Assembly: GCA_019323555.1 (NCBI GenBank)
Contig: JAHWHC010000014.1
Span: 1-51,051 of the forward strand
Direction: 5' to 3'
DNA length: 51,051 bases
Source of the DNA: Candidatus Woesearchaeota archaeon
Lineage (GTDB): Archaea; Nanobdellota; Nanobdellia; Woesearchaeales; ARS49
Within the stretch, counting starts at the first letter, position 1. Every line of letters starts with the position of its first letter. Shown here piece by piece: positions 13,541 to 48,551 of the stretch. A model generated the notes under the pieces. That model was not told the DNA's origin. It worked only from the letters and a program-made list of their open reading frames with translations, and ran no database searches. The translations under genes were made by a program, and so were the position numbers.

Positions 13541-14202
13541 AGAAGATTATTGGTTTTGATTTTGATGGTTCTGTCATTCGTTCTATTGCTAGTGATGAGG
13601 CTCATTATGAGTGGTTTAAGGTTATGAGTGTTCTATTGAAAGATCCTAAAGTTAAGAAACTTGCAGGCAAGAAAGATTATTTTCCAGATGTCTATAGATT
13701 AATGCAAAAGTATACTGGATTAAGCATTAAAAATGCTTTTGAGAAAGAGGTCAGCACACGGCTTGCAAGAAATTTATACCAGCTTGCTATGCTTGGTCCT
13801 GCTAACAAGCACAAAAAGAAGCTGCTGTTCAAGGATGTTGCTAAAGTAATACTTCAATTAAAAAAGAAATACTGTGTTGCATTGATCACAACTGTTCCTG
13901 GTGATGTTGTCCTGCCTATGCTTAAATTAATTGATTTTGATAAGTTTGATATTGTTCACACAACTGCGATTAATGAAAGACCCTCTAAACTAATTGCTTT
14001 GAAGCGATTCTCTAAAAAATACAAAAAGCCCGCAGTATACATCGGCAACACCATAGAAGACATCGCGGCGTGTAAAAAACTGAAGATTAAGTCTATCCTT
14101 GTTACCTGGGGCAAGTATGATAAAGAAGCAGTTCACAAGGCAGATTATGTTGCGCAGAATGCAGAAGAGCTTAAGAAAATAATAGATCACCTAAATCTCT
14201 AA
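13531..14202 (+). CDS. HAD-superfamily hydrolase
   Basis: Motif I IIGFDFDGSVI and a C-terminal IGNTIEDIAA block. 10-nt overlap with the dedA-like gene. Confidence 0.6.
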   Translation: MGIKKIIGFDFDGSVIRSIASDEAHYEWFKVMSVLLKDPKVKKLAGKKDYFPDVYRLMQKYTGLSIKNAFEKEVSTRLARNLYQLAMLGPANKHKKKLLFKDVAKVILQLKKKYCVALITTVPGDVVLPMLKLIDFDKFDIVHTTAINERPSKLIALKRFSKKYKKPAVYIGNTIEDIAACKKLKIKSILVTWGKYDKEAVHKADYVAQNAEELKKIIDHLNL

Positions 14203-15396
14203 TAGTATGTCCACATCTGTTTTAACTCTTTGTTCAAAGTCTGCAGTCTTCTCTCCTTCCTCTTTCTCTACAGATAATAATCTTATCAGTTCTGCTGTTA
14301 GTTCTTTCTCTTTTTCAGTCTCAAACACCCCTAATTGTCCAGAGTGTTCATTTATTGCAGCTTCCTCTATCTCATCTACAGAGCTCTTGCTTGTCTTTAT
14401 CTCCTCAAATTCTTTTGATACTAACTTATTGGTGTTCTTCATCACAAAGTATGCTCCGGAGGAATATGCTTTGTTAAAAAACTCTTTAAACTTTATGTCG
14501 CTTGGTTTTCCTGTTCTCAAGCATCCTGCAATCCTTAATGTGATTATTGCATCTTTTACTTCTCCTGTTAGCAGGCTCATTAACTCGTCATTTGCCTCTT
14601 CAGGTGTTTTGTTCTCTGCATTCAGTTCATGACTGATGACTCTGTGCGGCTCTATCTTCAGGTGCTGTACATGGCCGTTGTCTACAATTACAAAGCTTCC
14701 TTTCTTGAGTTTCTCCAGCTCTGAGAAGGAGTTGGGGTATATCGGGCCAGGATAGACTATGTTTTCATATCCTGCTATGTTCACTTTGTCTATTATGTGG
14801 ACGTGCCCGCCTGCATAATAATTAAAGTTCTTTGGCAGCAATGATACTGGCATTGCATCCATCTTCTCTAGTTCTTTTGGTTTAAGCTCTGAGAGTGCAG
14901 AGTGGAACAAGAATATCTTGTATCTTGTCTCTTTTTCTTCAAGGTGTTTTCTTTCCAGATGGTAGAAGTAATTTTTTTCTAGTCCTCCCTTTTTCCCGAG
15001 CAGGCCCGTTATCTTTATTTTTGTCTTGGGGTCTACCACAAAATCTAGTTTTAATTTTCCATCCACCTCTTGTCCCGTGCAAACGTTTTTCATAAGCCCT
15101 GCACTCTCAAGCACCTCTAATATTGTTTTGCCAGAAGAACTGAAGTCATGACTTCCAGGAATAGAATATACTGGGATGTTTTTATCAGCAAGCTGTTTCA
15201 GTTTCTCTACAACTGTCCTTAGGCAGTCTATAGGGGGCATTGCTGTGTTGAACAAGTCTCCGGATAATAATACAAAATCTACTCCTGCCTTTAGGCAGTA
15301 GTCTACTACAGAAACAAATGATTTAGTATTGACTGCCCTTAGTTTTGGTTCACGCCACCCGCCTACATGACAGTCTGCTATATGTGCAAACTTCAT
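14191..15396 (-). CDS. mre11: Mre11-type DNA repair nuclease (calcineurin-like phosphoesterase)
   Basis: FAHIADCHVG, LLSGDLFN, IPGSHDF and AGGHVH phosphoesterase motifs. Immediately downstream of herA. Confidence 0.8.
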   Translation of the reverse strand: MKFAHIADCHVGGWREPKLRAVNTKSFVSVVDYCLKAGVDFVLLSGDLFNTAMPPIDCLRTVVEKLKQLADKNIPVYSIPGSHDFSSSGKTILEVLESAGLMKNVCTGQEVDGKLKLDFVVDPKTKIKITGLLGKKGGLEKNYFYHLERKHLEEKETRYKIFLFHSALSELKPKELEKMDAMPVSLLPKNFNYYAGGHVHIIDKVNIAGYENIVYPGPIYPNSFSELEKLKKGSFVIVDNGHVQHLKIEPHRVISHELNAENKTPEEANDELMSLLTGEVKDAIITLRIAGCLRTGKPSDIKFKEFFNKAYSSGAYFVMKNTNKLVSKEFEEIKTSKSSVDEIEEAAINEHSGQLGVFETEKEKELTAELIRLLSVEKEEGEKTADFEQRVKTDVDILLEI

Positions 15397-15447
15397 GCAG
15401 TATGAAATGTCTTGGAGCTTTTTAAATTTTTATTGCCTGCAAAATAA

Positions 15448-16968
15448 TCAATGCAGTTTAACTCCTGAGAACTCCTGTTTTACCTCTTGTTTTTTCTTTA
15501 CAATGTCATCGAAAAAAGGTATTGTGACAGGTATTGCGAATTTTGCAAAGTTAGAGCTCACTATGGCCTCTCCGATATCCAGGGAAGCTATGTTTCTTTC
15601 GTCAGAGCTTAGGTCTTGTGCAGCACTCTCTATTATTGCCTGCCTCTCTGGCTTTAGCTCTATGCCTAGTATTATTTTTGTGTTCATGTTTGCCAGTATC
15701 TCTCTGGGTATGAGGCTTGGCAGCTGCGTTATTGCTGTCAGCCCTATCTTGAACTTTCTTCCCTCTCTTGCTATTGTTGAGAATACATTTGCTCCTCTCT
15801 CCAGCGCCTCTTTCCCAAGCACCCGCGGAGCCTCCTCCAATACTATGGATATCACTGGTTTTTGTTTGAGCTCGTCTGATTTGGAATTTTTGTGCTTGTC
15901 AAGTGCATTTGTTGCAATCACGCTTCCGATCAGTATCTCTACTGCGCCGGAAAATTCTGACGTGTCGATTACAACAGTCTTTCTTTCCTCTAGCTCTGTG
16001 ATTATGTCTGTGATTGTTGCCTGTCCTGCATCTGTGTCAAATATTCCTTTGCAGGCGATCTCTTCATTCTCTACATTCAGGTGCAGTATCTGAAGCAGTC
16101 TTCTGCGTACGACGTCTGTTGTTGCCTCTATGAATTTTACCTCTAGTGGTTTCTCCAGGACTATTGCAGATATCCACTCCGCCCCGTATTTCCGGTAATA
16201 TGCAGACATTGCCTGCTTCTGTGCATCGCTCCAGTATGCTACGCCGTTGAAATGATTTGGCTTTAGTGTCCTTAAGTTTATTTTTAGTGTCTTGCATCCT
16301 GCAGGCGGGCTGCGCGGCGTGTAATAAACCAGTTTCTCTTTTGCTTGCGGATGATCCTTCAGTCCTAATTTGTTTCTTCCGTAGTATTCGTCGTGCGGGT
16401 CCAGCACTAAAAAACTGCAGTACTCCTGGTCAATTGTGTGCCACAGTAAATTGCTCATCAAGACGCTTTTTCCTCTCCCTGTTGTTCCGGAGATCAATAT
16501 GTGGTGGCTCAATACTTTATTTCCGTCCAGGTATATGGGCAGCGCCAGTGTTTTTGTTCCGCTCCTGAGGTTTCCTATAAAGAATTGGCTGTTTGTTTTT
16601 GTCAAAAGAAAAGTAAAATCATCAGCATTGACTTCTCTTACAGATGAAAAAAAGCTTGGGAGGGTTTTTGGGGCGATTGCCTTGTTGTCCTGTATCGTTA
16701 CCAGGCTCTTGATTTTTGCGAGTGTGTAATTCCTTAGGTTCGCATCCATTATCTCCATGTCAGAGTCTTCCTCTAATCTTAGGCCAGAGACCAGCTCAAG
16801 GTTTTGCTGGCTTAGCTGTGATCCATAAACAAGATCAAATACCTGAAAAAGTATTTTTTGGTTTCCTGATTCTGCAATCAGCAGTTCCCCTAGTTCAAGC
16901 TTCTTGCCTGCCTTCTCTCTGACAATAATGCTTCCAAACTCTCCCGAAATAACCAGACCCTTAGTCAT
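15448..16968 (-). CDS. herA: HerA-type hexameric ATPase/helicase
   Basis: N-terminal barrel-like segment ([16 protein letters not shown]...GELLIAE) and Walker [13 protein letters not shown]. Paired with mre11. A minus-strand TATA at 16991-17004 sits about 27 nt upstream of the ATG. Confidence 0.8.
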
Positions 16969-19463: not shown

Positions 19464-19844
19464 ATGGCTGAACCTAAGAATATCGCTTTGGTGATTCTAG
19501 GAGTTGTTGCGATTATCGCAGTTGTTGGATTAGTTCTGTTGTTCACTAGGACAGGTACAACTGGTGGAATAGTTACTATGGCAGGATGTGATTCCCCTGC
19601 AACACCGGTTCTTGCAGAACCAGGCATTAATCCAGCATTCTTGGCAATGTGGCAAGAAGCAGGATACACTTGTGTAAAAGCTCCTGGACAGGATGAGTAC
19701 AGTTTGCAGACCTGGTGCTGCACACCACCAGCAGGAGTTCCAGTTGATCCGCATTACCAGCCTGGAGAGGGTCCAATCCCACCAATATCCTATGATCAAG
19801 AGCCAGGATATCCGGATTACAGATATAACTGGGAAGGACAATAA
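19464..19844 (+). CDS. Small membrane-anchored Cys-rich protein (C...C...CC family, paralog of 23847..24113)
   Basis: SD gaggtgat, N-terminal TM ALVILGVVAIIAVVGLVLLF, then C..TPVLAE...EAGYTCVKA...WCCTPP and a Pro/Tyr-rich tail. Confidence 0.7.
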   Translation: MAEPKNIALVILGVVAIIAVVGLVLLFTRTGTTGGIVTMAGCDSPATPVLAEPGINPAFLAMWQEAGYTCVKAPGQDEYSLQTWCCTPPAGVPVDPHYQPGEGPIPPISYDQEPGYPDYRYNWEGQ

Positions 19845-20362: not shown

Positions 20363-21319
20363 TTATTCTTTGTCTAGCACTATTCTCGCTATGTTGCTGA
20401 CCAGTGTTGTTCCTGTCTTGATGTTCTCTACAAGCTCCACTGTTTCTGCTGCTGTGTTTTTTGTTATTAGGCTCGTGCACTGTTTTACAAGCTCTATTCT
20501 TTTTCTTGCTACTGCATCTGCCAGTGCTTTGTCGTCAGAGTGCAGGGCTTTCATGACTGTCGTGTATTGCTTGTCTAACTCTTCGAGTATTGGTTTTATT
20601 TTTACAAGTTCTTTTTTGTCTATTTTTCCTGCAGTTGTGCACATGTGCTTTACGCAGTCTGCAAGATTTTCCAGGTTCATTGATAAGTACCAGCTTGGAA
20701 GTATCTGTGTTTTTTCTATTCCTATGTCTTCTGCTAATTGTGTGTTTGTCACTGCACTTTTCAATAGTCTTGATAAAAGGAAGTATAGTCGATTGACGTC
20801 ATAGTCCCTGAACACTATTGTTTCGTAATTGAATTTTTTGTCTTCTACGCCGTCTGCAATGTCTTTTAGCATTGTTCTTACAATCATGTCCATTCTTTTT
20901 ATTGTCTTGTCCACAGATATTTCTTTTAGGTTCAGGAGGTCTTTTGCGATTATGCTTTTTGCTGTCTGCTCAGATATCTCTAGTGCCACAAAGTCGTGCA
21001 GCATTTTTCTGATTTGTTTTACTTTTTCAGCTAGGCTGTCGCCGAATATTGTGATTGTGTTATAGTTGTTTACATATGCTGCTGTGATTTCTCTTTGTAT
21101 TGTGTCTAGCTCTTTTTTGTCTATATTGATTGTTATCTCTTTTTGTTCCTGCACCTCTTGCTCCTGGCTCTGTTCAGGCATGATCACTAGTTCTCTGTCA
21201 GATTTCTCAACAAGATACACATTATGTCCTTTCTCTAGGTTGTTCTTTTCAATCCACTTTTTTGGTAAAGAAACAGTGTGGCTGGCAGGTCCTGCCTTTA
21301 CAAGTCTTCTGATATGCAT
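20363..21319 (-). CDS. AbrB/SpoVT-domain plus PhoU-repeat regulator (archaeal PhoU-like phosphate uptake regulator)
   Basis: N-terminus MHIRRLVKAGPASHTVSLPKKWIEKNNLEKGHNVYLVEK is an AbrB-like swapped hairpin, followed by helical PhoU-like repeats. The start is set at ATG 21319, 6 nt after SD gaggtgat. Confidence 0.7.
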   Translation of the reverse strand: MHIRRLVKAGPASHTVSLPKKWIEKNNLEKGHNVYLVEKSDRELVIMPEQSQEQEVQEQKEITINIDKKELDTIQREITAAYVNNYNTITIFGDSLAEKVKQIRKMLHDFVALEISEQTAKSIIAKDLLNLKEISVDKTIKRMDMIVRTMLKDIADGVEDKKFNYETIVFRDYDVNRLYFLLSRLLKSAVTNTQLAEDIGIEKTQILPSWYLSMNLENLADCVKHMCTTAGKIDKKELVKIKPILEELDKQYTTVMKALHSDDKALADAVARKRIELVKQCTSLITKNTAAETVELVENIKTGTTLVSNIARIVLDKE

Positions 21320-21405
21320 TAAAATCACCTCATTTTGTAAGTATTAAACGTATATTTGATATTGTAAATACGTTACGCTTATATAAATTTTTTGTATAGT
21401 TCTGT

Positions 21406-22206
21406 TTGTGGGTGGCAAACATAGCTGCTCCCTATAGTGATAATATGACATTAACAGATACTAAACACAGAACAAGCAGCAGCGTGGATAGAATAGTTCT
21501 TAATGCTGAAAATGAGGCACTGCAAAGAGAAGTGGATCGGTTAAAACGTAAAACTCGGCAGCTAGAATCTCAGGAAATGCTGCGCGAGGCTGAAACAGCT
21601 GCAGATTTTACAGCTGGACAGATGGATCGCACAGTATATAACGTTCGTAATGCAAATTATGGCATGGATAAATTAGTGTCTGCAATAGATGGAATACGAA
21701 GATATGATGCTTTATTGTCAAAAACACAGGGTGTGCAGGTGAATCCCCATAGAGAGGCAGTTACTGTAGTATATCTCTGTATGAACCATTATCAGCACAA
21801 GAGAGATAATATAAGCAAGACATCAGCACTGCGTGAATTGACAGAGCTTACTGGCAGGATTAACAAGTATTTTGAGATGCGTTGCAGGCCTGCTGATTGT
21901 TTTGCTAAAGGAGGCTGGCAAGATCATATGTTTATGTTTGTGCTTCCTGCTACAGACAGGGCAGGCGCAAAGACATTTTTAGATCGGGTTGTTAGGGTTG
22001 CGATTAAAGGCCATGAAGGTGCAGTTGATATTTCTTATGGTATTGCTAATCATGCTGCAGATGTCCAAGAATTGCATCCGCGCGAAGAGTCACGAGCTAT
22101 TGCATCAAGATTATTAGATGCTGCCAAGAAGATAGCTAGGGATCAAAATTCTGAATTTGCTGGCAGGATTGAAAAAGAAGCACAGTATCAGCATGATGCA
22201 GCTTAA
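21406..22206 (+). CDS. Coiled-coil protein with degenerate GGDEF-like (palm/cyclase-fold) C-terminal domain, predicted catalytically inactive
   Basis: The domain aligns by eye to GGDEF landmarks. VTVVYLCMNHYQHKRDN sits in place of lallDiDhFKxiND, CFAKGGWQDHMFMFVLPATD in place of RyGGDEFxxllP, VDISYGIAN in place of SiGva, and LLDAAKKIARDQ in place of ADxALYxAK. The start is uncertain: TTG 21406, GTG 21412 or ATG 21445. Confidence 0.55.
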   Translation: MWVANIAAPYSDNMTLTDTKHRTSSSVDRIVLNAENEALQREVDRLKRKTRQLESQEMLREAETAADFTAGQMDRTVYNVRNANYGMDKLVSAIDGIRRYDALLSKTQGVQVNPHREAVTVVYLCMNHYQHKRDNISKTSALRELTELTGRINKYFEMRCRPADCFAKGGWQDHMFMFVLPATDRAGAKTFLDRVVRVAIKGHEGAVDISYGIANHAADVQELHPREESRAIASRLLDAAKKIARDQNSEFAGRIEKEAQYQHDAA

Positions 22207-22435
22207 GTCTATATTTCTTCATAAATACACTCTTGATGCTATATACTTACAAAACGTATATGCAGTATAGTAAGTACGTCAAATATATATAATTCATGCA
22301 ACACTATAGTAATTAAGATGAATAAAACCTGAGGGCAGGTACCTGTGACGCAGGGCGTAAAAGCACAGGATCTGAACACAGGCCAAGGCTGAACGCCAAA
22401 ACCAAACGCTAAATGCCTTGTCCGCTTACCCTTTT

Positions 22436-22456
22436 ATCCTTTATTCATCCTTTATT
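22436..22456 (+). repeat. Tandem direct repeat atcctttatt(c)atcctttatt
   Basis: Two exact 10-mers with an 11-nt period, immediately after the GC-rich island. Confidence 0.6.
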
Positions 22457-22623
22457 ATCATTGGCAACATTGAGAAACAGTGGAGCTTTGTTTATTTAAG
22501 GCAAAGAAAAACACAAATAGGCGAAAAACGCACAGCTCATACCGGAGCGGTTGTTGGCTATCTTGCCGCTCCATCAAAAATTTACAAAAATGACACTCAC
22601 TCAACCCCCCTCGAAACTTAAAA

Positions 22624-22671
22624 GGCGCGTGCTCACGAATTCTTCAATTCAGCGCGCCTCCCTTTTTTTTT
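22624..22671 (+). terminator. Hairpin plus T9 intrinsic-terminator-like element
   Basis: The outer stem has six G-C pairs plus one U-G pair, and the inner stem is 5 bp GAATT/AATTC with loop cttc. It is followed by tccc and nine T residues. Confidence 0.5.
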
Positions 22672-22741
22672 ATAGTTCTCCATTATTGTTCATTGACAGG
22701 CCTGCCTTTGTTGAAATGATGATCACGCAGATCAAGAAAAG

Positions 22742-23839
22742 ATGATATTCAAAAACCAGGCCCTGGTTAATAGGTTCAAAAGATTTGTTAATTCTATAAC
22801 CCCTAAAGATCGCATAGCAGTCATTCATCACACAGATCCAGACGGCGTCTGCTCAGGAGTTATAATCTCCAAAGTTGTTGAAAGAGTTCGCGGAAAGAAG
22901 ATTGATTTGCGTTTAAATCAAAAAGGAAATGTTCACGTCATAACCCCCAAGACTTTTAATTTATTGAAATCTAAAAAGATAAATAAGCTTATACTGACTG
23001 ATTTGGGTGCAGACGAAAACCCAAAATACCTGAAAAAGATGGAGGAGTTTGCAGATGTTTTATTGATAGACCACCACAAGATTTACAATAATCTGTCCTC
23101 TAAAAAAACAGTTTTTATCAAGCCGCAGCTTTTCTGCAGTATTGACCCTGCACGATACGCGACTGCAAAGATGTGCTATGATCTTGGAGGGCTGGTTGCA
23201 GATGTCTCTGATCTTGATTGGCTTGCTGCAGTTGGTTCTGTGGGTGATATTGCAACAAAGCCCTGGGCCTCCTGGCTTAACCGTGTTTTTAAGAGGTATA
23301 AGATCAAGAAACAGAAGGATTTGTTTAAGACAAAATTTGGGCAGTGTGCAATTCTCATCAGTTCTGCAGAATCATTTGATGTTAAAAATGTAAAACTTGC
23401 TTTTGATGTCTTGTACAAGGCAAAGTCATACAAAGATGTTTTAAGATCCAAACTGAAGACTTTTAGGAAAAAGATTGATGATGAGCTTCAGAAATATCTG
23501 AAACAGCTAAAGAAAAATGCTCTTTTTGAGAAAGACATAATCTATTATGAAGTTAAGCCAAAGTATCACACAAAATCACCATTGTGCACGATTCTCGGAT
23601 TGAAATATCCTCACAAGTCTGTCTTGGTTGCAGACATATCTAGAAACCCTGTCGGCATCAGCGGCAGACGCGGCGATGTCAAGATAAAGATAAACAAGTC
23701 ATTGGAAGATGCCTGCAAAGGCATTTCAGGAGCATCTGCAGGAGGGCATGCAGTCTCTGCAGGAGCTACAGTTCCTAAAAAACACTACAAAAAATTCAAA
23801 TCACGCTTATTCAATATTTTAAATAAAAAAAGGAGGTGA
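22742..23839 (+). CDS. DHH/DHHA1-family phosphoesterase (NrnA/RecJ-like)
   Basis: Motifs VIHHTDPDGVCSG (DxD), LTDLG, LLIDHH (DHH), GSVGD and the C-terminal DHHA1 motif SAGGHAVSAGA. Confidence 0.75.
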   Translation: MIFKNQALVNRFKRFVNSITPKDRIAVIHHTDPDGVCSGVIISKVVERVRGKKIDLRLNQKGNVHVITPKTFNLLKSKKINKLILTDLGADENPKYLKKMEEFADVLLIDHHKIYNNLSSKKTVFIKPQLFCSIDPARYATAKMCYDLGGLVADVSDLDWLAAVGSVGDIATKPWASWLNRVFKRYKIKKQKDLFKTKFGQCAILISSAESFDVKNVKLAFDVLYKAKSYKDVLRSKLKTFRKKIDDELQKYLKQLKKNALFEKDIIYYEVKPKYHTKSPLCTILGLKYPHKSVLVADISRNPVGISGRRGDVKIKINKSLEDACKGISGASAGGHAVSAGATVPKKHYKKFKSRLFNILNKKRR

Positions 23840-23846
23840 AATAGAA

Positions 23847-24113
23847 ATGGCAAAATGTAAGACAATGTCATCAAAGACAATTGTTGTTATGATGCTGGGC
23901 ATCTTAGTGATAGTTGCTATAGTTGGCTTAGTAATGACCATGAAATCACAAGGCACTGGCAAGGCAGTATATTCCTCTGTACAGATGTGTCCTTATGGCC
24001 ACACTAGTCAGGCATCAGATTCACCGGTTTTAGAAGCTAAGATAAAAGCAGGCCAAGAATGCAGAAAAGCAGCATACCCTGGCTGGCACTGCTGCAAGAC
24101 AGCTATGCGCTGA
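23847..24113 (+). CDS. Small membrane-anchored Cys-rich protein (C...C...CC family, paralog of 19464..19844)
   Basis: SD ggaggtga, TM VVMMLGILVIVAIVGLVM, then C..SPVLEA..KAGQECRKA...WHCCKTA. Confidence 0.7.
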   Translation: MAKCKTMSSKTIVVMMLGILVIVAIVGLVMTMKSQGTGKAVYSSVQMCPYGHTSQASDSPVLEAKIKAGQECRKAAYPGWHCCKTAMR

Positions 24114-24133
24114 TCATATTGTTTGCATCACAT

Positions 24134-24154
24134 AAAACTATTTAAAATAGTTTT
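24134..24154 (+). promoter_or_regulatory. Palindromic TATA-like element upstream of the GGDEF gene
   Basis: aaaactattt-a-aaatagtttt has perfect 10-nt arms and is centred 25 nt upstream of ATG 24169. Confidence 0.45.
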
Positions 24155-24168
24155 ATTACCGTTTTTTT

Positions 24169-25152
24169 ATGGCTTATGAAGAGATATTGCTGAAGTTTTT
24201 GGACTTGCTTAACTCTGCAATGAACGTCGACCAGGTCCTTCAGCGTAGTTGTGACTTCTTTTATACAGAATTCCGGCTGGCAGACTGCTCAATAGCATTC
24301 AATAAAACTGAAAAAAGGCAGAACAATGCCCCGCAAGGCATGCAGGATGTTGAAAAAGTCATCAAGAGCCAGGTTCTTGACTCTAATTCTTTTCTGTTTA
24401 TCAAGGACCCAAAGTCAGATATATCTCTTTCTGATTGTAAGGGTGCTAAGGCAATAGATAACCCTATCCTTGCTTTTCCAATTCCTCATGAGCAGAAGGC
24501 AGTTGGTGTCTGTTTTTTTTATTCTAGCATTGACTTAAGCAATTATATTGAGCTTGTCTCCCTGCTTCTCTCTAAGATGGCTGTTGCCTGCTCAAGAGCA
24601 AAGTATTTTGAGGACGCGCAGCACTGTGCTATCACAGATCTTCTCACTGGCCTGTATAATAAGGCATATTTTATTGAGGCTATCAAGACAGAGATTGCTC
24701 GTGGAAAGCGCAATCAAAAGCCTCTTTCCTTGGTCATGTTTGATTTTGATAATTTCAAGGAATTGAATGACACCAAGGGGCATATGGAGGGAGACAGGAT
24801 CTTGAAAGAAGTTGGTAGGCTGCTCAAGGAGCAGATTCGCTCAATGGACATCCCTTGCAGGTATGGGGGAGAAGAATTTACTATCATTCTGCCGGAGACA
24901 GCGCAGGATGATGCGTTTTCTATTGCTGAACGGCTGAGAAAGTCTGTTGCAGATGCATTTTCTGGCTTGACAACTATCTCTTTAGGTGTTGTCACCTGCA
25001 TGAATTCCAGCATTGATGCTGACACCATGGTTAAGCAGGCAGATGCTGCGCTCTATAAGGCGAAGAATCTTGGAAAGAACAGGACTGTTAATTTTGTTGT
25101 GATTGATAAGAGCATTGCCCCCATTGATGTTCAGGCAGCAATAGGCAAGTGA
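24169..25152 (+). CDS. Diguanylate cyclase: N-terminal sensory (GAF-like?) region plus intact GGDEF domain
   Basis: DLLTGLYNKAYF, LVMFDFDNFKELNDTKGHMEGD and GGEEF (aa 233-237, nt 24865-24879). The RSMD I-site lies 5 residues upstream. Also ISLGVV and ADAALYKAKNLGKNR. Confidence 0.85.
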   Translation: MAYEEILLKFLDLLNSAMNVDQVLQRSCDFFYTEFRLADCSIAFNKTEKRQNNAPQGMQDVEKVIKSQVLDSNSFLFIKDPKSDISLSDCKGAKAIDNPILAFPIPHEQKAVGVCFFYSSIDLSNYIELVSLLLSKMAVACSRAKYFEDAQHCAITDLLTGLYNKAYFIEAIKTEIARGKRNQKPLSLVMFDFDNFKELNDTKGHMEGDRILKEVGRLLKEQIRSMDIPCRYGGEEFTIILPETAQDDAFSIAERLRKSVADAFSGLTTISLGVVTCMNSSIDADTMVKQADAALYKAKNLGKNRTVNFVVIDKSIAPIDVQAAIGK

Positions 25153-26346
25153 TTATTTTCCGCTCACTATCTCAATCACGTCTCCGTGTTTGAGTATGTG
25201 GTCTCTGCCTATTGTTCTTTTTGTTTTTACATCTATTGCTCTCACAAAGTTATCCCCAAAGTCAGAATGAAGCTTGTATGCAAAATCTAGGGCAGTTGAT
25301 CCTTCTGGCAAAAGAAAGCAGTCTGGAAGTATGTTGCCGTGCTGGTCAGATAGCTTGTTCACGCCTCCTGGAAATATCGCGATGTGTTTCAAAAGAGTGA
25401 ATACTGCATCATCGATTGCTGGCTGTACCCCTGTGCTTTTCCATTTGTTCAGTATTTTTGATTTTATGAACTGTAGTGCCTTGTCTTGTTTTTCATTAAG
25501 CTGGCCGATTATCTTGAAGTCCTGTGCTCCAGGAATATACTCTATCAGTCCTTTTTTGGCAGCCTCTTTTAAGGCCAGTTCTGATTCTGCTGAGCAGGGT
25601 ATTATTGTGTATTCTGGAAACTCTTTTTTTACTCTCTCTAGGTTTGCTTCTGCTGATGGAAGGTCTATCTTGTTTGCTGCGATTATCATTGGTTTTGTTG
25701 CTTTTCTGAATTCCTTTGCCATCTCCAGCAGGTTTTCTTCTGTCCACTCCACAGGTCGCTCAGTGTTAAGGTCTAGTTTTTTGAATATGCTGTCAACAAG
25801 ATCCTCTGTTATGTTCAGTCCTGATAATTGTTTTGCCAGGACTTTTGTTATCTGGCTTTTTTCCTGCTGGACCTGTCTTGCTAGTTTTTCCCATCCTTTT
25901 TTCAGTATTGATAGATACCACATGTCTAGTTCTATCTCTAGGAATTTTATGTCAAAAGCAGGGTCATAGCTGCCTGGCTCTACTGGCTCGCCTTTTTCAT
26001 TTGTGCTTCCTGCAATGTCTACTATGTGGATTAAGGCGTGCGCCTGTCTTAGGTCATCCAGGAATTTGTTGCCCATTCCTTTTCCTTCGTGAGCGCCTGG
26101 GACTAATCCTGCCACGTCTATCACTTCTACTGGCACGAATCTTGTCCCCTCTAAACAATACCCGAATCTTGGGTTGCATTTTACATTGAAATGTTTTTCC
26201 GCACACTCTACCCGCACATGCCCGAATCCTTTGTTTGGGTCTATTGTTGCAAAAGGGTAGTTTGCGATGAGTATCTCTGCCAAGGTTAAGGCTTTGAAAA
26301 ATGTGCTTTTTCCTACGTTTGCTTTTCCTACCACGCCGATTATCAT
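25153..26346 (-). CDS. ychF: YchF/OLA1-type (Obg-family) GTPase/ATPase with C-terminal TGS-like domain
   Basis: G1 GVVGKANVGKSTFF, DVAGLV, NKID, and a C-terminal ...KHGDVIEIVSGK. Confidence 0.8.
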   Translation of the reverse strand: MIIGVVGKANVGKSTFFKALTLAEILIANYPFATIDPNKGFGHVRVECAEKHFNVKCNPRFGYCLEGTRFVPVEVIDVAGLVPGAHEGKGMGNKFLDDLRQAHALIHIVDIAGSTNEKGEPVEPGSYDPAFDIKFLEIELDMWYLSILKKGWEKLARQVQQEKSQITKVLAKQLSGLNITEDLVDSIFKKLDLNTERPVEWTEENLLEMAKEFRKATKPMIIAANKIDLPSAEANLERVKKEFPEYTIIPCSAESELALKEAAKKGLIEYIPGAQDFKIIGQLNEKQDKALQFIKSKILNKWKSTGVQPAIDDAVFTLLKHIAIFPGGVNKLSDQHGNILPDCFLLPEGSTALDFAYKLHSDFGDNFVRAIDVKTKRTIGRDHILKHGDVIEIVSGK

Positions 26347-26423: not shown

Positions 26424-27026
26424 ATGGTTTCAATAAAGCACAGGTATACAGGCGTTGAGTATAAGACAGTTACCAGGTTTTCTGTAAAGTTTAAGGATGT
26501 TTTTGTTCTTGACGATCTTTATGTCTTGATGTATGAGTGGCTTATTGAGCATGGGTTTGCAACAAGGTCAGATGCTGATTTTCCTGAAAGATATTATTTA
26601 GATAGGACTGGTCCTGCTGGTAAAGAGGTATGGATTAGGTGGAGGCCTAAGAGATATCCTCTTCCTGGAAATAATTTTTGGCGGTTTGATTTAGATATTG
26701 ACATGCACGTTCTTAGCCTGAAGGATGTTGAGTTGGTTGTGCAGAACAAGAAATTAAAGGCGCATAAGGGGGAGATTGAGGTGCAGGTCGCTGCAAACTT
26801 GATTTATGATGCAGCAGGAGACTGGAGAAAGAATTCTCTTCTAAAGCCGTTCAGGAGTTTTTATTTCAAGAGATTCATGAGCAAGAAAAAAGATATGCTT
26901 GAAAAAGAGTTTTATAATGAGGCTTATGAGTTCAGGGATGCAATTAATAATTACCTGAAGCTGGAGACCTACCTGCCAAGCAAGATGGCTGGCCTGGAAT
27001 TCTGGCCAAAACGCACCCCTGAGTAA
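26424..27026 (+). CDS. Unknown-family protein, paralog 1 of a tandem triplet
   Basis: 200 aa. Shares the ungapped block LKDVELVVQNKKLKAHKGEIEVQVAANLIYDAAGDW with the next two ORFs. Confidence 0.7.
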   Translation: MVSIKHRYTGVEYKTVTRFSVKFKDVFVLDDLYVLMYEWLIEHGFATRSDADFPERYYLDRTGPAGKEVWIRWRPKRYPLPGNNFWRFDLDIDMHVLSLKDVELVVQNKKLKAHKGEIEVQVAANLIYDAAGDWRKNSLLKPFRSFYFKRFMSKKKDMLEKEFYNEAYEFRDAINNYLKLETYLPSKMAGLEFWPKRTPE

Positions 27027-27066: not shown

Positions 27067-27567
27067 ATGACAACAATAAACATGCCCACAGTAGCAATAA
27101 AGCATAAGGGTATCTTTAACCTGTCTGATATTCTTCAAGGCATTAAGAGTTACTTTGAAGCTGATTATTTTAAGGTGCACTACCCAAAGCATAAGTTGAA
27201 GCAGCCCTCTACTGGCTGGGAGCATGAGATGGAGATCTATGGCGAGCGTAAGATGAATGAGTATGTTAAGTTCAAGATAACGCTCTTCATTCGCCTTTAT
27301 GATATTAAAGATATCGAGATTATTAAAGAAGGCAAAAAGGTGCAGACCAACAGCGGAAGGATTACTGTTGAGATCAGCGGCGAGATCACCCTGGATTTTG
27401 AGAACAGGTTTGGGGGCTCAAAACTATTGCAGGGGCTTCAGGACTTTTATCACAAGTACATTATCAAGCAGGACATTGGTGATGTCTGGGAAGATGATAT
27501 CATGCTTAAGATGGTTAATTTAGGAAAATTAATAAGGGAGAAGTGTCAACAAGACATAATCACTTAG
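27067..27567 (+). CDS. Unknown-family protein, paralog 2 of a tandem triplet
   Basis: 166 aa. Shares the block IKDIEIIKEGKKVQTNSGRITVEISGEITLDFENRF. Confidence 0.7.
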   Translation: MTTINMPTVAIKHKGIFNLSDILQGIKSYFEADYFKVHYPKHKLKQPSTGWEHEMEIYGERKMNEYVKFKITLFIRLYDIKDIEIIKEGKKVQTNSGRITVEISGEITLDFENRFGGSKLLQGLQDFYHKYIIKQDIGDVWEDDIMLKMVNLGKLIREKCQQDIIT

Positions 27568-27570: not shown

Positions 27571-28071
27571 ATGTCTGAAAAAGCAACAGTCGTGGATAAA
27601 GAAGCAATAAAGTATTCTGGCTTGTTCTCTGTTAAAGAGCTCTACGCACTTATTGAGCAATGGGAAGAGTCAAAAGGGTACTTTCCTGTTGAGAATTTTA
27701 TTGAGGAGAGTGTTGAGAAAGAGGGCAAAGTTATCACAGCAAAGCTTGAGCCTTTCAAGAAGCTCACTGATTATGCAAAGGCAGTTATCAAGATTGATAT
27801 AATGATATCTGACTGTAAAGAGGTTGAGGTTACACGGGCTGGCAAAAAGCAGAAATTGAACAAAGGGATTGTTGTTATTGAGATCATGTCTATTTTAGAG
27901 ACAGATTATGAGCACAGATGGGAGATGAAGCCCTGGCTTTATGTCTTGAGGACTATTTTTGAGAAATATATTTACACGCCGTTTTTAAGCGGCTTCAGGA
28001 ATGCCATCCGCGAGGATACAGACCATTTGAAAGAGCAGATAAAGGCATTTTTAAATCTCTATAAGAAGTAA
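27571..28071 (+). CDS. Unknown-family protein, paralog 3 of a tandem triplet
   Basis: 166 aa. Shares the block CKEVEVTRAGKKQKLNKGIVVIEIMSILETDYEHRW. Starts 3 nt after the paralog 2 stop. Confidence 0.7.
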   Translation: MSEKATVVDKEAIKYSGLFSVKELYALIEQWEESKGYFPVENFIEESVEKEGKVITAKLEPFKKLTDYAKAVIKIDIMISDCKEVEVTRAGKKQKLNKGIVVIEIMSILETDYEHRWEMKPWLYVLRTIFEKYIYTPFLSGFRNAIREDTDHLKEQIKAFLNLYKK

Positions 28072-28206: not shown

Positions 28207-28293
28207 GCCTCCGTAGCTTAGTAGCTATAGCGGCTGACTTGTATCTAAATGCAAGCAATCAGCAGGTCGAGGGTGCAACTCCCTCCGGAGGCT
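28207..28293 (+). tRNA. tRNA-Thr (anticodon TGT) with 14-nt intron at canonical 37/38 position
   Basis: Acceptor GCCTCCG/CGGAGGC, D arm GCTT..AGC, anticodon stem GCTGA/TCAGC. The 21-nt loop is CTTGTA|tctaaatgcaagca|A. T arm GAGGG-TGCAACT-CCCTC, discriminator T, no encoded CCA. Exon CTTG pairs with intron CAAG, flanked by two 3-nt bulges (BHB). Confidence 0.85.
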
Positions 28294-30467: not shown

Positions 30468-30474
30468 TTTGAGA

Positions 30475-30563
30475 CGCACTCGAGGGGATTCGAACCCCCG
30501 ACCCCTTGCTGGCTCCTTGGTAAATAGGAGGCAAGTGCTCTATCCAAGCTGAGCTACGAGTGC
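30475..30563 (-). tRNA. tRNA-Arg (anticodon CCT) with 14-nt intron at canonical 37/38 position
   Basis: The minus strand reads as follows. Acceptor GCACTCG, TA, D arm GCTC-AGCTTGGATA-GAGC, anticodon stem CTTGC. The loop is CTCCTA|tttaccaaggagcc|A, closed by GCAAG. Variable loop GGGTC, T arm GGGGG-TTCGAAT-CCCCT, acceptor CGAGTGC, discriminator G. Exon CTCC pairs with intron GGAG, flanked by 3-nt bulges. Confidence 0.85.
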
Positions 30564-30587
30564 ATTTAGAGAATTAGTTCTGTATTG

Positions 30588-30599
30588 TTTTTAAAGTTT
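30588..30599 (-). promoter_or_regulatory. TATA box for tRNA-Arg (and co-transcribed truD)
   Basis: The minus strand reads aaactttaaaaa, centred about 30 nt upstream of the mature tRNA 5' end. This implies a very short leader. Confidence 0.45.
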
Positions 30600-37401: not shown

Positions 37402-38259
37402 TTACCAGCCTCCTGAGCTTCCGCCTCCTCCAAAGCTTCCGCCCCCGAATCCGCCAAAGCCTCCGCCAAATCCTCCAGAGCTTTTTCCAAATCCGCCCCA
37501 GATTATTCCGCCAGGCCCTCCTTTTTTCATGAATGCTACTTGTGCTGCTAGTATCCAGAACATTACACTAAGCACAAGTGCGATCATTAGATAAGTTAAT
37601 CCTAGGAATATAGATACTATGATTATTGCTGCGTCTGCTCCTGCTCTTGTTTTCCATTTGTGCTTTTTTTGTTTCTCTGTTGCAACAAGTAATATCAATA
37701 ATAAGATTAAGTATCCAAACACTATGAGTCCTCCAAGGGTGCTCATTGTTGTTGGTTTGTATTTTGCCACTATGCTTGGGTCTTCTTGAAGCAGGCCTTT
37801 TATGTCACTCAAGGCTTCATAGACTCCTCTGCCGTATTCTTCAAGTCTAAATGCAGGTGTCAGGATCTGTCTCCCGATTCTTCCTGTTTTTGCGTCTGGC
37901 AGAACCCCTTCAAGGCCGTAGCCAGTCTCAAATCTATACTTTCTGTCTTGAACAGATATTAAAAGCAGCAATCCATTGTTTTTCTCTTCTTTTCCTATGC
38001 CCCAGTTTCTTGCAACTGCTAGCGAGTATTCTTCTAGTGGTTGCCCCTCTAGGCTTTCGATAGTAAGTACTGCAACTTCTGCTGTGGTATTTTTTTCTAT
38101 CGCTTCGCATAGTTTCTCTATCTGTGGCCCATACTCTCCTAGAATGTTTGCATTGTCTGTTACATATCCTTTGTAAGCAGGGATTTCTGCTAGAACAACA
38201 GGTAATAGTAAGAATATTAGCAGTAATAATATTGGCTTTTTGTTCATTCTTTTATCCAA
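37402..38259 (-). CDS. TPM-domain (YgcG-like) membrane protein with Gly-rich tail
   Basis: Signal/[14 protein letters not shown] helices, and C-terminal [24 protein letters not shown]. Classical pairing with lemA. Confidence 0.75.
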
Positions 38260-39139: not shown

Positions 39140-39193
39140 TACTTTTAGTGATTCTATGAAGTCTGATTTTGTGATTATCAGTTTTTCTAGTAT

Positions 39194-47671: not shown

Positions 47672-47672
47672 A

Positions 47673-48083: not shown

Positions 48084-48123
48084 AACATGAAATTTTAAAT
48101 ATCGCGGTTATTTCTTTTGCTTT

Positions 48124-48516: not shown

Positions 48517-48551
48517 AAAGATTTTTAAAGTGTTCTACACGAGAGATATGT

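What the first reader, a model, noticed from the sequence alone, without database searches (positions are those of the whole stretch)
21406..25152. Neighbourhood hypothesis: compact cyclic-dinucleotide signalling module in an archaeon
The gene order across this region is:
1. A degenerate GGDEF-fold protein.
2. A structured non-coding interval.
3. A DHH/DHHA1 phosphoesterase with all motifs present: HHTDPDG, DHH, GGH.
4. An 88-aa Cys-rich membrane-anchored protein.
5. An intact GGDEF cyclase.

DHH/DHHA1 enzymes (NrnA, GdpP, Pde2) are the known degraders of pGpG, c-di-AMP and nanoRNA. The cluster therefore contains a plausible synthase, a plausible hydrolase and a plausible non-catalytic binder, with no EAL or HD-GYP gene nearby. 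That combination as a self-contained unit in an archaeal genome is not something I recognise as described.

The grouping could still be coincidental. DHH proteins are also housekeeping nucleases.
Basis: inference. Interest (0 to 1): 0.75.

Follow-up and report, generated by a model that had tools for sequence, protein, structure and literature searches.

The report
Archaeal diguanylate cyclase beside mini-RecJ nuclease
A tiny symbiotic-type archaeon (Woesearchaeota) carries an intact, vertically inherited enzyme for making the "bacterial" messenger c-di-GMP, but the neighbouring DHH enzyme looks like a DNA/RNA-trimming RecJ-type nuclease rather than a dedicated messenger-degrading partner, so the five genes are not a self-contained module.

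Summary
All five elements exist as described. The 327-aa protein is a textbook diguanylate cyclase (GGEEF, RxxD I-site). Its orthologues are found in more than 120 Woesearchaeal protein clusters, on contigs up to 969 kb. They co-diverge with the neighbouring genes, so this is a genuine archaeal gene and not contamination. The 253-aa ORF is a coiled-coil plus degenerate GGDEF fold that keeps an invariant RPAD (RxxD-like) motif. It occurs only patchily among close relatives. The "structured interval" is a stand-alone ~355-nt ncRNA with strong covariation and no Rfam match. It is not a riboswitch.

The DHH/DHHA1 protein groups with archaeal RecJ/GAN, not with NrnA/GdpP. It is conserved in DPANN lineages where no cyclase lies next to it. 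In two species it sits inside an Mre11–DHH–Rad50 operon.

DHH–cyclase adjacency looks ancestral in the DHH tree, and the two genes overlap in 7 species. It is nevertheless the least stable junction of a highly syntenic housekeeping block. One clade and one inversion separate the two genes without losing either.

Verdict: genuine archaeal c-di-GMP synthesis potential is the interesting part. The "self-contained synthase–hydrolase–binder module" is only partly supported.

The parts
21445..22206 (+). Coiled-coil plus degenerate GGDEF-fold protein (253 aa from ATG 21445; the ORF opens at TTG 21406). GGDEF is replaced by GGWQDHMF. An RPAD (RxxD-like) motif is invariant. Candidate c-di-GMP receptor.
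   Evidence: A2 alignment. AF2 model with pLDDT 75. Foldseek top hits are all diguanylate cyclases, E 2e-6. hhalign against the cyclase family gives E 1.9e-4, with RPAD aligned to the I-site. Only 14 homologues are known.
21346..21386 (+). Copy of the palindromic box plus TATA that also precedes the ncRNA (22252-22292). It flanks the degenerate GGDEF gene.
   Evidence: Direct repeat D1, 41 nt, 73% identity. The box is conserved upstream of the ncRNA in all aligned loci.
22316..22671 (+). Stand-alone structured ncRNA of about 355 nt. TATA box at 22284-22292. The 5' domain (22331-22440) has a closing helix, two hairpins and a 5-bp kissing loop. Terminator hairpin at 22624-22658, followed by a T-run. 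The 5' end is inferred from the TATA position.
   Evidence: Alignments A1 and A4. The covariance model finds it in 16 loci, 15 of them distinct (L004 duplicates L015), all with E<=3e-8. 18 of 24 pairs are compensatory and 90.7% of cells are paired. No Rfam match. In L022 it is followed by convergent genes.
22742..23839 (+). Compact (365 aa) RecJ-type DHH/DHHA1 phosphoesterase ('mini-RecJ') with all catalytic motifs intact.
   Evidence: Pfam DHH and DHHA1. NCBIfam best hit is RecJ_archaeal at 90 bits, below the 360 cutoff. PDB sequence and profile searches. AF2 pLDDT 94.8 and Foldseek. More than 170 homologues. Synteny.
23847..24113 (+). 88-aa protein with an N-terminal membrane anchor and a Cys-rich tail. 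Preceded by a GGAGGTGA Shine-Dalgarno sequence, 7 nt after the DHH stop. Its N-terminal anchor resembles that of the 126-aa protein at 19464-19844.
   Evidence: It lies between DHH and the cyclase only in the window's clade.
24169..25152 (+). GAF-like sensor plus GGDEF diguanylate cyclase (327 aa). Motifs present: FDFDNFK, ELND, GHMEGD, RSMD I-site and RYGGEEF.
   Evidence: PF00990 at 146 bits and TIGR00254 at 170 bits. Motifs are conserved in 20 orthologues. GAF and PocR domains are detected in orthologues. More than 120 full-length homologue clusters.
20363..21328 (-). Context: AbrB/SpoVT-PhoU regulator. It is divergent from DHH in 37 of 38 informative Woesearchaeal loci.
25153..26346 (-). 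Context: YchF-related GTPase, convergent with the cyclase. It is the cyclase's most stable neighbour (12 of 13 loci, and also L059-L061).
14191..16968 (-). Context: Mre11-like phosphoesterase plus HerA helicase, 5.8 kb upstream of DHH in the window and 4-7 kb upstream across related loci, in the same conserved block.

Best explanation
The region is part of a highly syntenic Woesearchaeal housekeeping block: Mre11-HerA ... GTPase-OapB-OapC ... AbrB/PhoU <-> DHH - cyclase -> <- YchF. One real signalling gene is embedded in it.

**Cyclase (24169-25152).** It is a genuine, vertically inherited archaeal diguanylate cyclase. A GAF-like sensor (PocR-GAF in other lineages) most likely controls dimerisation of the GGDEF domain. 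The domain would condense 2 GTP into c-di-GMP and be product-inhibited through its RxxD I-site. This mechanism is inferred from motifs.

**Degenerate GGDEF protein (253 aa).** It is a recent, dispensable addition. It cannot bind substrate but keeps an RxxD-like RPAD motif. It is therefore most likely a c-di-GMP receptor or adaptor acting through its coiled coil. This is inferred.

**DHH/DHHA1 protein.** It is a compact, catalytically competent RecJ-type exonuclease. Its primary job is nucleic-acid end processing or turnover, such as DNA end resection with Mre11/Rad50 or trimming of short oligonucleotides. It is not a dedicated cyclic-dinucleotide phosphodiesterase. Its link to the cyclase is inherited gene order with co-transcription in some lineages. 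At most it may clear linear pGpG as a side activity, as housekeeping nanoRNases do in bacteria.

**ncRNA and 88-aa protein.** Both are unrelated passengers.
For: **Cyclase**
- Strong Pfam and TIGRFAM hits and all catalytic and I-site motifs.
- The 120 best homologue clusters are mostly full-length. All named ones are Woesearchaeota or Nanoarchaeota except one, and contigs reach 969 kb.
- GGDEF-domain distances track DHH distances: r=0.87, Mantel 0 of 5000.
- GC content is uniform across the region, and the window's other genes are archaeal.

**DHH**
- The profile hits PfuRecJ at 2e-18, GAN at 3e-17 and MjaRecJ2 at 1e-16. Bacterial RecJ scores 6e-10 and NrnA-type TmPDE 3e-4.
- Foldseek top hits are archaeal RecJ and RecJ-Cdc45 at about 1e-17. 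NrnA, GdpP and PggH score 1e-10 to 1e-8.
- The only significant DHH-family NCBIfam hits are RecJ and GAN models.
- Orthologues occur in DPANN lineages where no cyclase lies next to DHH.
- L047 and L049 carry an Mre11-DHH-Rad50 operon with overlapping genes.
- Mre11-HerA lie 4-7 kb upstream elsewhere.

**Not a module**
- Junction stability in informative loci: AbrB-PhoU/DHH 37 of 38, OapC 28 of 29, cyclase/YchF 12 of 13, but DHH/cyclase only 17 of 31.
- The cyclase is separated from DHH yet retained in L059 and L061. L059 comes from the same MAG as the cyclase-less DHH locus L026.
- L060 carries an inversion of the DHH/PhoU pair.
- The degenerate GGDEF gene is patchy.
- The ncRNA has its own promoter and terminator and is followed by convergent genes in L022.

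**Degenerate GGDEF:**
Against: - DHH-cyclase adjacency looks ancestral in the DHH tree. It persists down to 39% DHH identity while the sensor domains change, and the genes overlap by 4-19 nt in 7 species. That is more than is usually expected of functionally unrelated genes.
- The DHH protein lacks the roughly 100-aa insertion of archaeal RecJ/GAN. It scores far below the NCBIfam RecJ cutoffs.
- Its best global structural fit is a small-molecule enzyme, the M. thermolithotrophicus PAP phosphatase 8a8k (TM 0.75/0.86). A small-nucleotide substrate therefore remains possible.
- No alternative c-di-GMP hydrolase was seen, though only 51 kb could be inspected.
- No activity has been measured for any of the proteins.
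- The tree is neighbour-joining without support values.
Confidence: 0.6

Rival explanations
1. DHH/DHHA1 is the dedicated hydrolase (c-di-GMP and/or pGpG) of a compact synthase-hydrolase-binder module. It replaces EAL and HD-GYP in these archaea.
For: - The genes are adjacent, co-oriented and often overlapping across deep lineages.
- The DHH catalytic motifs are intact.
- The protein is compact and NrnA-sized, with its best global structural fit to a small-substrate DHH enzyme (8a8k).
- There is no EAL or HD-GYP in the window.
- From established knowledge, not tested here: stand-alone DHH/DHHA1 enzymes such as NrnA, PggH, GdpP and CnpB degrade pGpG or cyclic dinucleotides.
Against: - Sequence and fold affinity is to RecJ/GAN by about 14 orders of magnitude over NrnA-type enzymes.
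- The family is conserved where no cyclase lies next to it, and it sits in Mre11-Rad50 operons.
- The cyclase and DHH are separated in a whole clade and by one inversion, with both genes retained.
- The module's other parts are not conserved.
Confidence: 0.17
2. A functional coupling of a different kind. The cyclase reports on or regulates DNA repair or replication carried out by the RecJ-type nuclease, so c-di-GMP acts as a genome-integrity or cell-cycle signal. This would be analogous to the c-di-AMP synthase DisA, which is encoded with radA in bacteria.
For: - Overlapping DHH-cyclase genes in 7 species.
- DHH is associated with Mre11/Rad50/HerA and with the origin-associated OapB/C genes in the same block.
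- The DisA analogy comes from established knowledge only.
Against: - There is no DNA-binding or DNA-sensing domain in the cyclase. Its sensors are GAF and PocR, which bind small molecules.
- The adjacency is broken in some lineages.
- There is no direct evidence.
Confidence: 0.1
3. The GGDEF genes are bacterial contamination or mis-binning, or a very recent transfer, and say nothing about archaeal biology.
For: - Published caution that archaeal MAG hits for c-di-GMP domains may be contamination (bioRxiv 10.1101/2021.11.05.467447; PMC5847659).
- One homologue is labelled 'Candidatus Binatia bacterium'.
Against: - The gene has the same position between archaeal genes in dozens of independent assemblies, on contigs of 395-969 kb.
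- It co-diverges with its neighbours.
- A lineage-specific C-terminal tail is shared by all orthologues.
- Composition is uniform across the region.
Confidence: 0.02
4. The GGDEF enzyme makes a product other than c-di-GMP, for example 3'3'-cGAMP as Hypr GGDEFs do, or it acts as a nucleotide-binding regulator rather than a cyclase.
For: No biochemical data exist. GGDEF domains with other roles are known from established knowledge.
Against: The guanine-specifying Asp of the GHxxGD motif (Ser in Hypr enzymes), the Asn of the ND motif, the metal-binding Asp residues and RYGGEEF are all conserved in 20 orthologues.
Confidence: 0.06

Closest known systems
Bacterial GAF-GGDEF / PleD- and WspR-type diguanylate cyclases (PF00990, TIGR00254)
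   Same: Full-length GGDEF domain at 146-170 bits. It has the metal-binding DxD, the ND and GHxxGD guanine contacts, the RYGGEEF A-site and the RxxD I-site (RSMDIPCRYGGEEF; PleD has a nearly identical stretch, recalled from memory). It also has an N-terminal small-molecule sensor.
   Different: It is encoded in DPANN archaea, where c-di-GMP signalling is regarded as absent or unproven (PMC10249747, PMC5847659). It carries a lineage-specific conserved C-terminal tail (…FVxIDKSxxxID…). No EAL, HD-GYP or PilZ partner is visible nearby.
Archaeal RecJ / GAN / RecJ-Cdc45 (PfuRecJ 5x4h, TkGAN 5ghr, MjaRecJ2 6tvv, Mth RecJ-Cdc45 7bih)
   Same: Nearest relatives by sequence profile (E 1e-18 to 1e-15) and by fold (E about 1e-17). 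DHH motifs I-IV and the DHHA1 GGH motif are present. The gene is associated with DNA-repair genes.
   Different: About 100 aa shorter (365 versus 430-500 aa); the missing residues were not mapped to a domain here. Well below the NCBIfam equivalog cutoffs. GINS binding and polarity of exonuclease activity are unknown.
NrnA / Pde2 / GdpP / PggH / TmPDE (DHH/DHHA1 nanoRNases and cyclic-dinucleotide phosphodiesterases)
   Same: Two-domain DHH/DHHA1 architecture of similar size, with the same catalytic motifs.
   Different: Only remote similarity: profile E 3e-4 to 3e-3 and Foldseek E 4e-10 to 3e-8, with TM 0.43-0.52. No NCBIfam hit to these families. No PAS-GGDEF N-terminal region as in GdpP.
PAP phosphatase of Methanothermococcus thermolithotrophicus (PDB 8a8k)
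   Same: Best global superposition of the model (TMq 0.75, TMt 0.86, rmsd 3.2 Å). It is the same size and is an archaeal RecJ-core DHH enzyme acting on a small nucleotide.
   Different: Sequence similarity is marginal (profile E 2e-3). There is no sulfate-assimilation context here.
Degenerate-GGDEF c-di-GMP receptors (PelD and PopA type, binding through the RxxD I-site)
   Same: GGDEF fold with a destroyed A-site and substrate contacts, but an invariant RxxD-like motif just upstream of the GG.
   Different: RPAD lies 4 rather than 5 residues from the GG. The partner domain is a coiled coil only. Binding is untested. The family is confined to a few close Woesearchaeal relatives.

Membership tests
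GGDEF diguanylate cyclase (PF00990 / TIGR00254) | Profile match above the curated cutoff | tested here: met
   PF00990 scores 145.9 bits against a cutoff of 23.8. TIGR00254 scores 170.1 bits against 37.4.
GGDEF diguanylate cyclase (PF00990 / TIGR00254) | GG[DE]EF A-site, metal-binding Asp residues, and the guanine-contacting Asn and Asp | tested here: met
   FDFDNFK, ELND, GHMEGD and RYGGEEF are present in the window and conserved in 20 orthologues. L018 has GGEEL and L040 has GGEEI.
GGDEF diguanylate cyclase (PF00990 / TIGR00254) | RxxD allosteric I-site five residues upstream of GGDEF (common but not obligatory) | tested here: met
   RSMD-IPCRY-GGEEF in the window. The regex scan confirmed RxxD in 9 of the 21 cyclase-positive loci: the window's close relatives L010-L012, L056 and L057, plus L022, L024, L027 and L043. 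It was not found in the others.
GGDEF diguanylate cyclase (PF00990 / TIGR00254) | Synthesis of c-di-GMP from GTP | not testable with these tools
   Needs an enzyme assay.
DHH/DHHA1 phosphoesterase superfamily | DHH motifs I-IV (DxD, D, DHH, D) and the DHHA1 GGGH-type motif; Pfam domains above cutoff | tested here: met
   D32, D34, D87, D110-H111-H112, D169 and G334-G335-H336 are invariant in 26 sequences. PF01368 scores 36.4 against 28.1 and PF02272 scores 26.0 against 25.9.
NrnA / GdpP / Pde2 cyclic-dinucleotide and nanoRNA phosphodiesterases | Closer sequence and fold relationship to these enzymes than to other DHH branches | tested here: not met
   RecJ/GAN score 1e-18 to 1e-15 and TmPDE 3e-4. 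Foldseek gives RecJ 1e-17 against NrnA 4e-10, GdpP 2e-9 and PggH 3e-8. The only significant DHH-family NCBIfam hits are RecJ and GAN models.
NrnA / GdpP / Pde2 cyclic-dinucleotide and nanoRNA phosphodiesterases | Hydrolysis of c-di-NMP or pNpN substrates | not testable with these tools
   Needs an enzyme assay.
Archaeal RecJ / GAN (Cdc45-like) | NCBIfam equivalog score (RecJ_archaeal 360, RecJ_Meth 550, GAN_nuclease 850) | tested here: not met
   Scores are 90.3, 66.3 and 51.9 bits, and only the DHH and DHHA1 parts align.
Archaeal RecJ / GAN (Cdc45-like) | Nearest solved relatives are archaeal RecJ/GAN | tested here: met
Archaeal RecJ / GAN (Cdc45-like) | Full architecture of about 430-500 aa with the extra (CID-type) insertion | tested here: not met
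   The protein is 365 aa. Foldseek alignments span 445-486 columns against targets of 430-470 aa, so about 100 residues have no counterpart.
Archaeal RecJ / GAN (Cdc45-like) | Sole, universal RecJ-type gene of the lineage; GINS/MCM interaction | not testable with these tools
   Only ±10 kb around hits can be read, so no whole-genome census was possible.
Archaeal RecJ / GAN (Cdc45-like) | Genomic association with DNA replication or repair genes | tested here: met
   Mre11-DHH-Rad50 with overlapping genes in L047 and L049. Mre11-HerA and OapB/C lie in the same block elsewhere.
c-di-GMP riboswitch (Rfam c-di-GMP-I / c-di-GMP-II), considered for the non-coding interval | Covariance-model match; cis position as a leader of the regulated gene | tested here: not met
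   No Rfam match even at E<=10 in three species. The RNA has its own terminator and faces convergent genes in L022.
Degenerate-GGDEF c-di-GMP receptor | GGDEF fold with an inactive A-site | tested here: met
   Foldseek E 2e-6 to diguanylate cyclases. GGWQDHMF is present and the ND and GHxxGD motifs are absent.
Degenerate-GGDEF c-di-GMP receptor | Retained RxxD I-site that binds c-di-GMP | tested here: inconclusive
   RPAD is invariant and aligns with RxxD, but its spacing to GG is one residue shorter and binding is untested.

The most novel reading that the evidence does not exclude
Woesearchaeal (DPANN) archaea run a complete c-di-GMP circuit without EAL, HD-GYP or PilZ. In this reading an ancestral operon couples a GAF/PocR-GGDEF cyclase to a miniaturised RecJ-type DHH enzyme. 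That enzyme has been recruited, or moonlights, as the c-di-GMP/pGpG hydrolase. Degenerate GGDEF proteins act as receptors. This would be the first archaeal c-di-GMP system and a new turnover route.
Probability: 0.12. Interest if true: 0.85.

Novelty: new member of a known kind. Interest (0 to 1): 0.55.

Why it matters
Reviews and censuses state that c-di-GMP has never been detected in archaea. They also say that GGDEF, EAL and HD-GYP hits in archaeal MAGs may be contamination (PMC5847659, 2018; bioRxiv 10.1101/2021.11.05.467447, 2021; PMC10086821, 2022; PMC10249747, 2023).

Here the cyclase gene sits at a fixed position between unmistakably archaeal genes, in dozens of independent assemblies. 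It co-diverges with those genes and keeps every catalytic residue. That largely settles the contamination question for this lineage. It also supplies concrete proteins for direct tests: the cyclase, a candidate receptor and a candidate hydrolase.

If the proteins are active, c-di-GMP signalling would extend to a third of the DPANN radiation. The next question would be what a genome-reduced, probably host-dependent archaeon regulates with it.

The work also tempers the attractive "compact module" idea. Gene order in this block is mostly inherited housekeeping synteny.

Tried and rejected
- **Sequence-profile identification of the 266-aa ORF.** Pfam, NCBIfam and a PDB profile search returned only coiled-coil noise. 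Structure prediction was needed.
- **Riboswitch or known RNA for the interval.** Rfam found nothing relevant at gathering threshold or at E<=10, in three species. SRP RNA and RNase P RNA were considered because of the kissing-hairpin 5' domain. They were rejected because there was no covariance-model hit and because the RNA was not detected in many related loci.
- **RNA as a 5' leader of DHH.** Rejected: it has its own terminator, and in L022 it faces convergent genes.
- **Exact look-up of the window's DHH protein in the assembly index.** Not on record.
- **Contamination or HGT artefact.** Rejected on synteny and co-divergence.
- **Hypr-GGDEF (cGAMP) reading.** The specificity Asp is conserved.
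- **Effectors nearby.**
  - No PilZ domain was found.
  - The T2SSE ATPase at 1065-3326 shows no MshEN hit at E<=0.001.
  - The three paralogous unknown proteins downstream of YchF have no Pfam or PDB relatives.
- **RNAalifold on the raw MAFFT alignment.** It missed helix H1 because of register shifts. This was solved with a covariance-model alignment.

Full report
**Source and context.** The window is a 51,051-bp contig of a Candidatus Woesearchaeota (DPANN) MAG. The DHH protein matches NCBI KY310_00955 at 100% identity. GC content is uniform at 0.34-0.44.

Pfam sweeps of about 50 ORFs show ordinary archaeal housekeeping genes:
- GatD/GatE, RtcB plus archease, deoxyhypusine synthase, CDC48, an S-layer protein and TruD;
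- two class-II aminoacyl-tRNA synthetases, Mre11-like plus HerA, OapB/OapC, an AbrB-PhoU regulator and a YchF-related GTPase.

No EAL, HD-GYP, PilZ or DAC domain was found.

**The observation.** The five elements are present in the stated order.

*(1) ORF 21406-22206.* The annotated start is ATG 21445, giving 253 aa.
- It has no Pfam, NCBIfam or PDB-sequence match beyond coiled-coil noise.
- Its 14 homologues share an invariant RPADCFxKGGWQDHMFMFVLPATD block.
- An AlphaFold model (pLDDT 75) has a long helical stalk plus an α/β domain.
- The top 26 Foldseek PDB hits are all GGDEF domains or diguanylate cyclases, including SiaD, DgcB and WspR (best E 2e-6).
- hhalign against the local cyclase family aligns the whole GGDEF domain in register (E 1.9e-4). 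RPAD falls on the RxxD I-site and GGWQD..F on GGEEF. The ND and GHxxGD substrate contacts are gone.
- "Degenerate GGDEF fold" is therefore correct.

*(2) Interval 22207-22741.* It holds a conserved TATA box (22284-22292), about 355 nt of conserved sequence, and a GGCGCG/CGCGCC hairpin followed by a T-run (22624-22671).
- A covariance model of the 5' domain (22331-22440) finds it in 16 loci with E<=3e-8, 15 of them distinct because L004 and L015 are the same contig.
- 18 of 24 pairs show compensatory changes and 90.7% of cells pair. No shuffle out of 500 reaches the observed values. Slid controls reach only 30-46% pairing.
- The structure includes a 5-bp kissing interaction between the two hairpin loops.
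- Rfam 15 has no match at E<=10 in three species.
- The RNA lies beside the AbrB-PhoU gene start wherever it was found. In L022 it is followed by two convergent genes, and DHH is 2.7 kb away.
- It is therefore a stand-alone ncRNA of unknown function, not a leader or riboswitch of DHH.

*(3) DHH/DHHA1 protein, 22742-23839.* DxD, D, DHH, D and GGH are invariant in 26 homologues spanning 40-100% identity.

*(4) 88-aa ORF, 23847-24113.* It follows the DHH stop by 7 nt and has a GGAGGTGA Shine-Dalgarno sequence. It has a hydrophobic anchor and a Cys-rich tail. The anchor resembles that of the 126-aa protein at 19464-19844.

*(5) GGDEF protein, 24169-25152.* PF00990 scores 146 bits and TIGR00254 170 bits. 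FDFDNFK, ELND, GHMEGD, the RSMD I-site and RYGGEEF are present.

**What the DHH protein is.**

Sequence evidence:
- The only significant DHH-family NCBIfam hits are archaeal RecJ, RecJ_Meth and GAN models, at 52-90 bits. These are far below their equivalog cutoffs.
- The single sequence hits MjaRecJ2, PfuRecJ and TkGAN at about 1e-9, and the NrnA-like TM1595 only at E 0.26.
- The family profile hits the archaeal RecJ/GAN entries PfuRecJ, GAN and MjaRecJ2 at 2e-18 to 2e-15 and bacterial RecJ at 6e-10. TmPDE scores 3e-4, a Borrelia DhhP 6e-4 and the methanogen PAP phosphatase 2e-3.

Structural evidence:
- The AlphaFold model is confident (pLDDT 94.8).
- Foldseek ranks archaeal RecJ and RecJ-Cdc45 first (about 1e-17, TMq 0.63-0.74). 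Those proteins are about 100 aa longer.
- The best global fit is the 317-aa PAP phosphatase 8a8k (TMq 0.75, TMt 0.86).
- NrnA/Pde2, GdpP and PggH follow at 4e-10 to 3e-8.

The protein is therefore a compact RecJ-core enzyme, a "mini-RecJ". It is catalytically competent. It belongs neither to the NrnA/GdpP branch nor to canonical GAN.

**Distribution and synteny.** The DHH family has more than 170 homologues of about 365 aa. I examined contexts of nine homologues and 49 species-representative loci from GTDB. Together they define a conserved block:

Mre11-HerA ... GTPase-OapB-OapC-(p126)-AbrB/PhoU(-) | DHH(+)

Counts in the core Woesearchaeal clade:

| Junction | Informative loci with the junction |
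|---|---|
| AbrB-PhoU upstream of DHH | 37 of 38 |
| OapC upstream of DHH | 28 of 29 |
| GGDEF gene within 1.5 kb downstream of DHH | 17 of 31 (21 counting truncated contigs) |
| YchF following the GGDEF gene | 12 of 13 |

Points in favour of linkage:
- In a neighbour-joining DHH tree the cyclase-adjacent state is basal and paraphyletic. The non-adjacent state forms essentially one derived clade plus the outgroups.
- The cyclase start overlaps the DHH stop by 4-19 nt in seven species (L018, L022, L024, L027, L035, L038, L040). The gap is 25-126 nt in three others. It is about 330 nt where a small ORF intervenes.
- In the window itself, a hairpin with a T-run and a TATA-like element lie between the small ORF and the cyclase. 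Independent transcription is therefore possible here.

Points against a dedicated module:
- *Two distant species.* In L047 and L049 (DHH 37-38% identical) the orthologue lies inside an Mre11-DHH-Rad50 operon with overlapping genes. Other DPANN outgroups (L050-L053) have yet other neighbours and no cyclase.
- *The "cyclase-less" clade.* Here the cyclase is not lost.
  - In L059 the 441-aa cyclase sits 3 nt after ATP-citrate-lyase-like genes and before YchF and the three unknown paralogues.
  - L059 is a contig of the same MAG as the cyclase-less DHH locus L026.
  - L061 shows the same arrangement.
- *An inversion.* On a 969-kb contig (L060) the DHH-ncRNA-PhoU unit is inverted. The cyclase then follows PhoU, and DHH points away.
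- *Other parts are not conserved.* The degenerate GGDEF gene is present in the window and in L003 (80% DHH identity). It is absent from L010 and L011 (90% and 87%) and from all more distant loci.
  - Its 5' flank duplicates the 41-nt box plus TATA of the ncRNA promoter and a 16-mer of the DHH leader.
  - This pattern suggests a recent local rearrangement.

**The cyclase as an archaeal gene.**
- The 120 best homologue clusters are mostly full-length (query coverage 60-100%, 97-100% for most). They occur on contigs up to 969 kb.
- Where a source names them, they are Woesearchaeota or Nanoarchaeota, with one "Binatia" label.
- GGDEF-domain distances correlate with DHH distances across 20 species (r=0.87; Mantel 0 of 5000).
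- All orthologues keep the catalytic motifs and share a lineage-specific C-terminal tail.
- Sensor modules vary: GAF-GGDEF of about 330 aa, PocR-GAF-GGDEF of about 500 aa, and an unassigned N-terminus of about 420-440 aa.

This pattern fits vertical inheritance of a working signalling enzyme. It does not fit contamination.

**Literature.**
- Galperin et al. 2018 (PMC5847659) knew one archaeal GGDEF and flagged MAG hits as possible contamination.
- Galperin & Chou 2021 (bioRxiv 10.1101/2021.11.05.467447) state that the c-di-GMP machinery "appears limited to bacteria". They leave archaeal MAG ORFs to "future studies".
- Römling 2022 (PMC10086821) notes that GGDEF presence "needs to be confirmed in archaeal contigs".
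- A 2023 review (PMC10249747) says c-di-GMP has not been described in archaea.
- I found no paper describing Woesearchaeal diguanylate cyclases.

**Interpretation.** The best-supported reading (confidence about 0.6) is as follows.
- The region encodes a genuine archaeal GAF-GGDEF cyclase, with c-di-GMP synthesis and I-site feedback inferred from motifs.
- In a few strains it also encodes a degenerate-GGDEF candidate receptor.
- Both are embedded in inherited housekeeping synteny next to a RecJ-type nuclease whose main role is nucleic-acid processing.

Arguments for it are the ancestral adjacency, the overlapping genes, the compact small-substrate-like architecture and the lack of any visible alternative hydrolase. 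It is weakened by the family affiliation, by conservation of DHH away from any cyclase, by the Mre11-Rad50 context, and by lineages that keep both genes apart.

A regulatory link between c-di-GMP and DNA repair or replication is a further possibility (about 0.1).

**Limits.**
- No whole-genome census of DHH paralogues, EAL, HD-GYP or PilZ could be made.
- The tree lacks support values.
- ORF detection in loci used phmmer thresholds.
- All activities are inferred.

Noticed in passing
window 22316-22671 (+); also L003, L006, L009-L016, L022, L027, L029, L056, L060: Conserved stand-alone ncRNA of about 355 nt with its own TATA box and terminator. The 5' domain has two hairpins joined by a covarying 5-bp kissing loop, and a downstream hairpin has a conserved GGCUAUC loop. 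There is no Rfam 15 match. It lies beside the AbrB-PhoU gene start in every locus where it was found.
   Followed up: partly
window 22252-22292 and 21346-21386; aligned loci in A1: A palindromic AAACGTAT…ATACGTT box immediately upstream of the ncRNA TATA is conserved in all loci. It is duplicated in front of the degenerate GGDEF gene. It may be the operator of the divergent AbrB-PhoU regulator.
   Followed up: partly
L047 8802-13079; L049 5766-10079: The orthologous DHH gene is sandwiched between Mre11 and Rad50 genes, with overlapping stops and starts. This suggests that in these DPANN lineages a mini-RecJ takes the place usually held by NurA in the archaeal Mre11-Rad50 operon.
   Followed up: partly
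window 26424-27026, 27067-27567, 27571-28071 (+): Three tandem paralogues of an unknown protein family (200, 166 and 166 aa). They always travel with YchF and the cyclase, even where the cyclase is separated from DHH. They have no Pfam or PDB relatives.
   Followed up: partly
L059 3239-7326; L061 4232-8326: In the clade where DHH and the cyclase are apart, the 441-aa GGDEF gene follows ATP-citrate-lyase-like genes with a 3-nt gap. It is followed by a C39-like peptidase gene.
   Followed up: no
window 30598-31839 (-): A GT2 family glycosyltransferase (cellulose/chitin-synthase-like Pfam hits) lies 5 kb from the cyclase. GT2 synthases are classic c-di-GMP targets in bacteria, but no PilZ domain is present.
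   Followed up: no
window 38252-40540 (-): CDC48/VCP appears split into two adjacent ORFs, N-domain plus D1 (448 aa) and D2 (295 aa). This could be a real split gene or an assembly frameshift.
   Followed up: no
window 28207-28293 (+) and 30473-30564 (-): Two tRNA genes of 87-92 nt, probably intron-containing. ARAGORN finds only one of them. RtcB ligase and archease are encoded at 47538-49985.
   Followed up: no
window 19464-19844 and 23847-24113 (+): Small proteins that share an N-terminal membrane anchor and both have Cys-rich C-terminal parts. In L016 the ORF between DHH and the cyclase also matches the 126-aa protein.
   Followed up: partly
record titles of L010, L012, L018 and others: Many species-representative contigs titled 'uncultured Methanosarcinales archaeon' carry the Woesearchaeal block. 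Their taxonomic labels look wrong.
   Followed up: no
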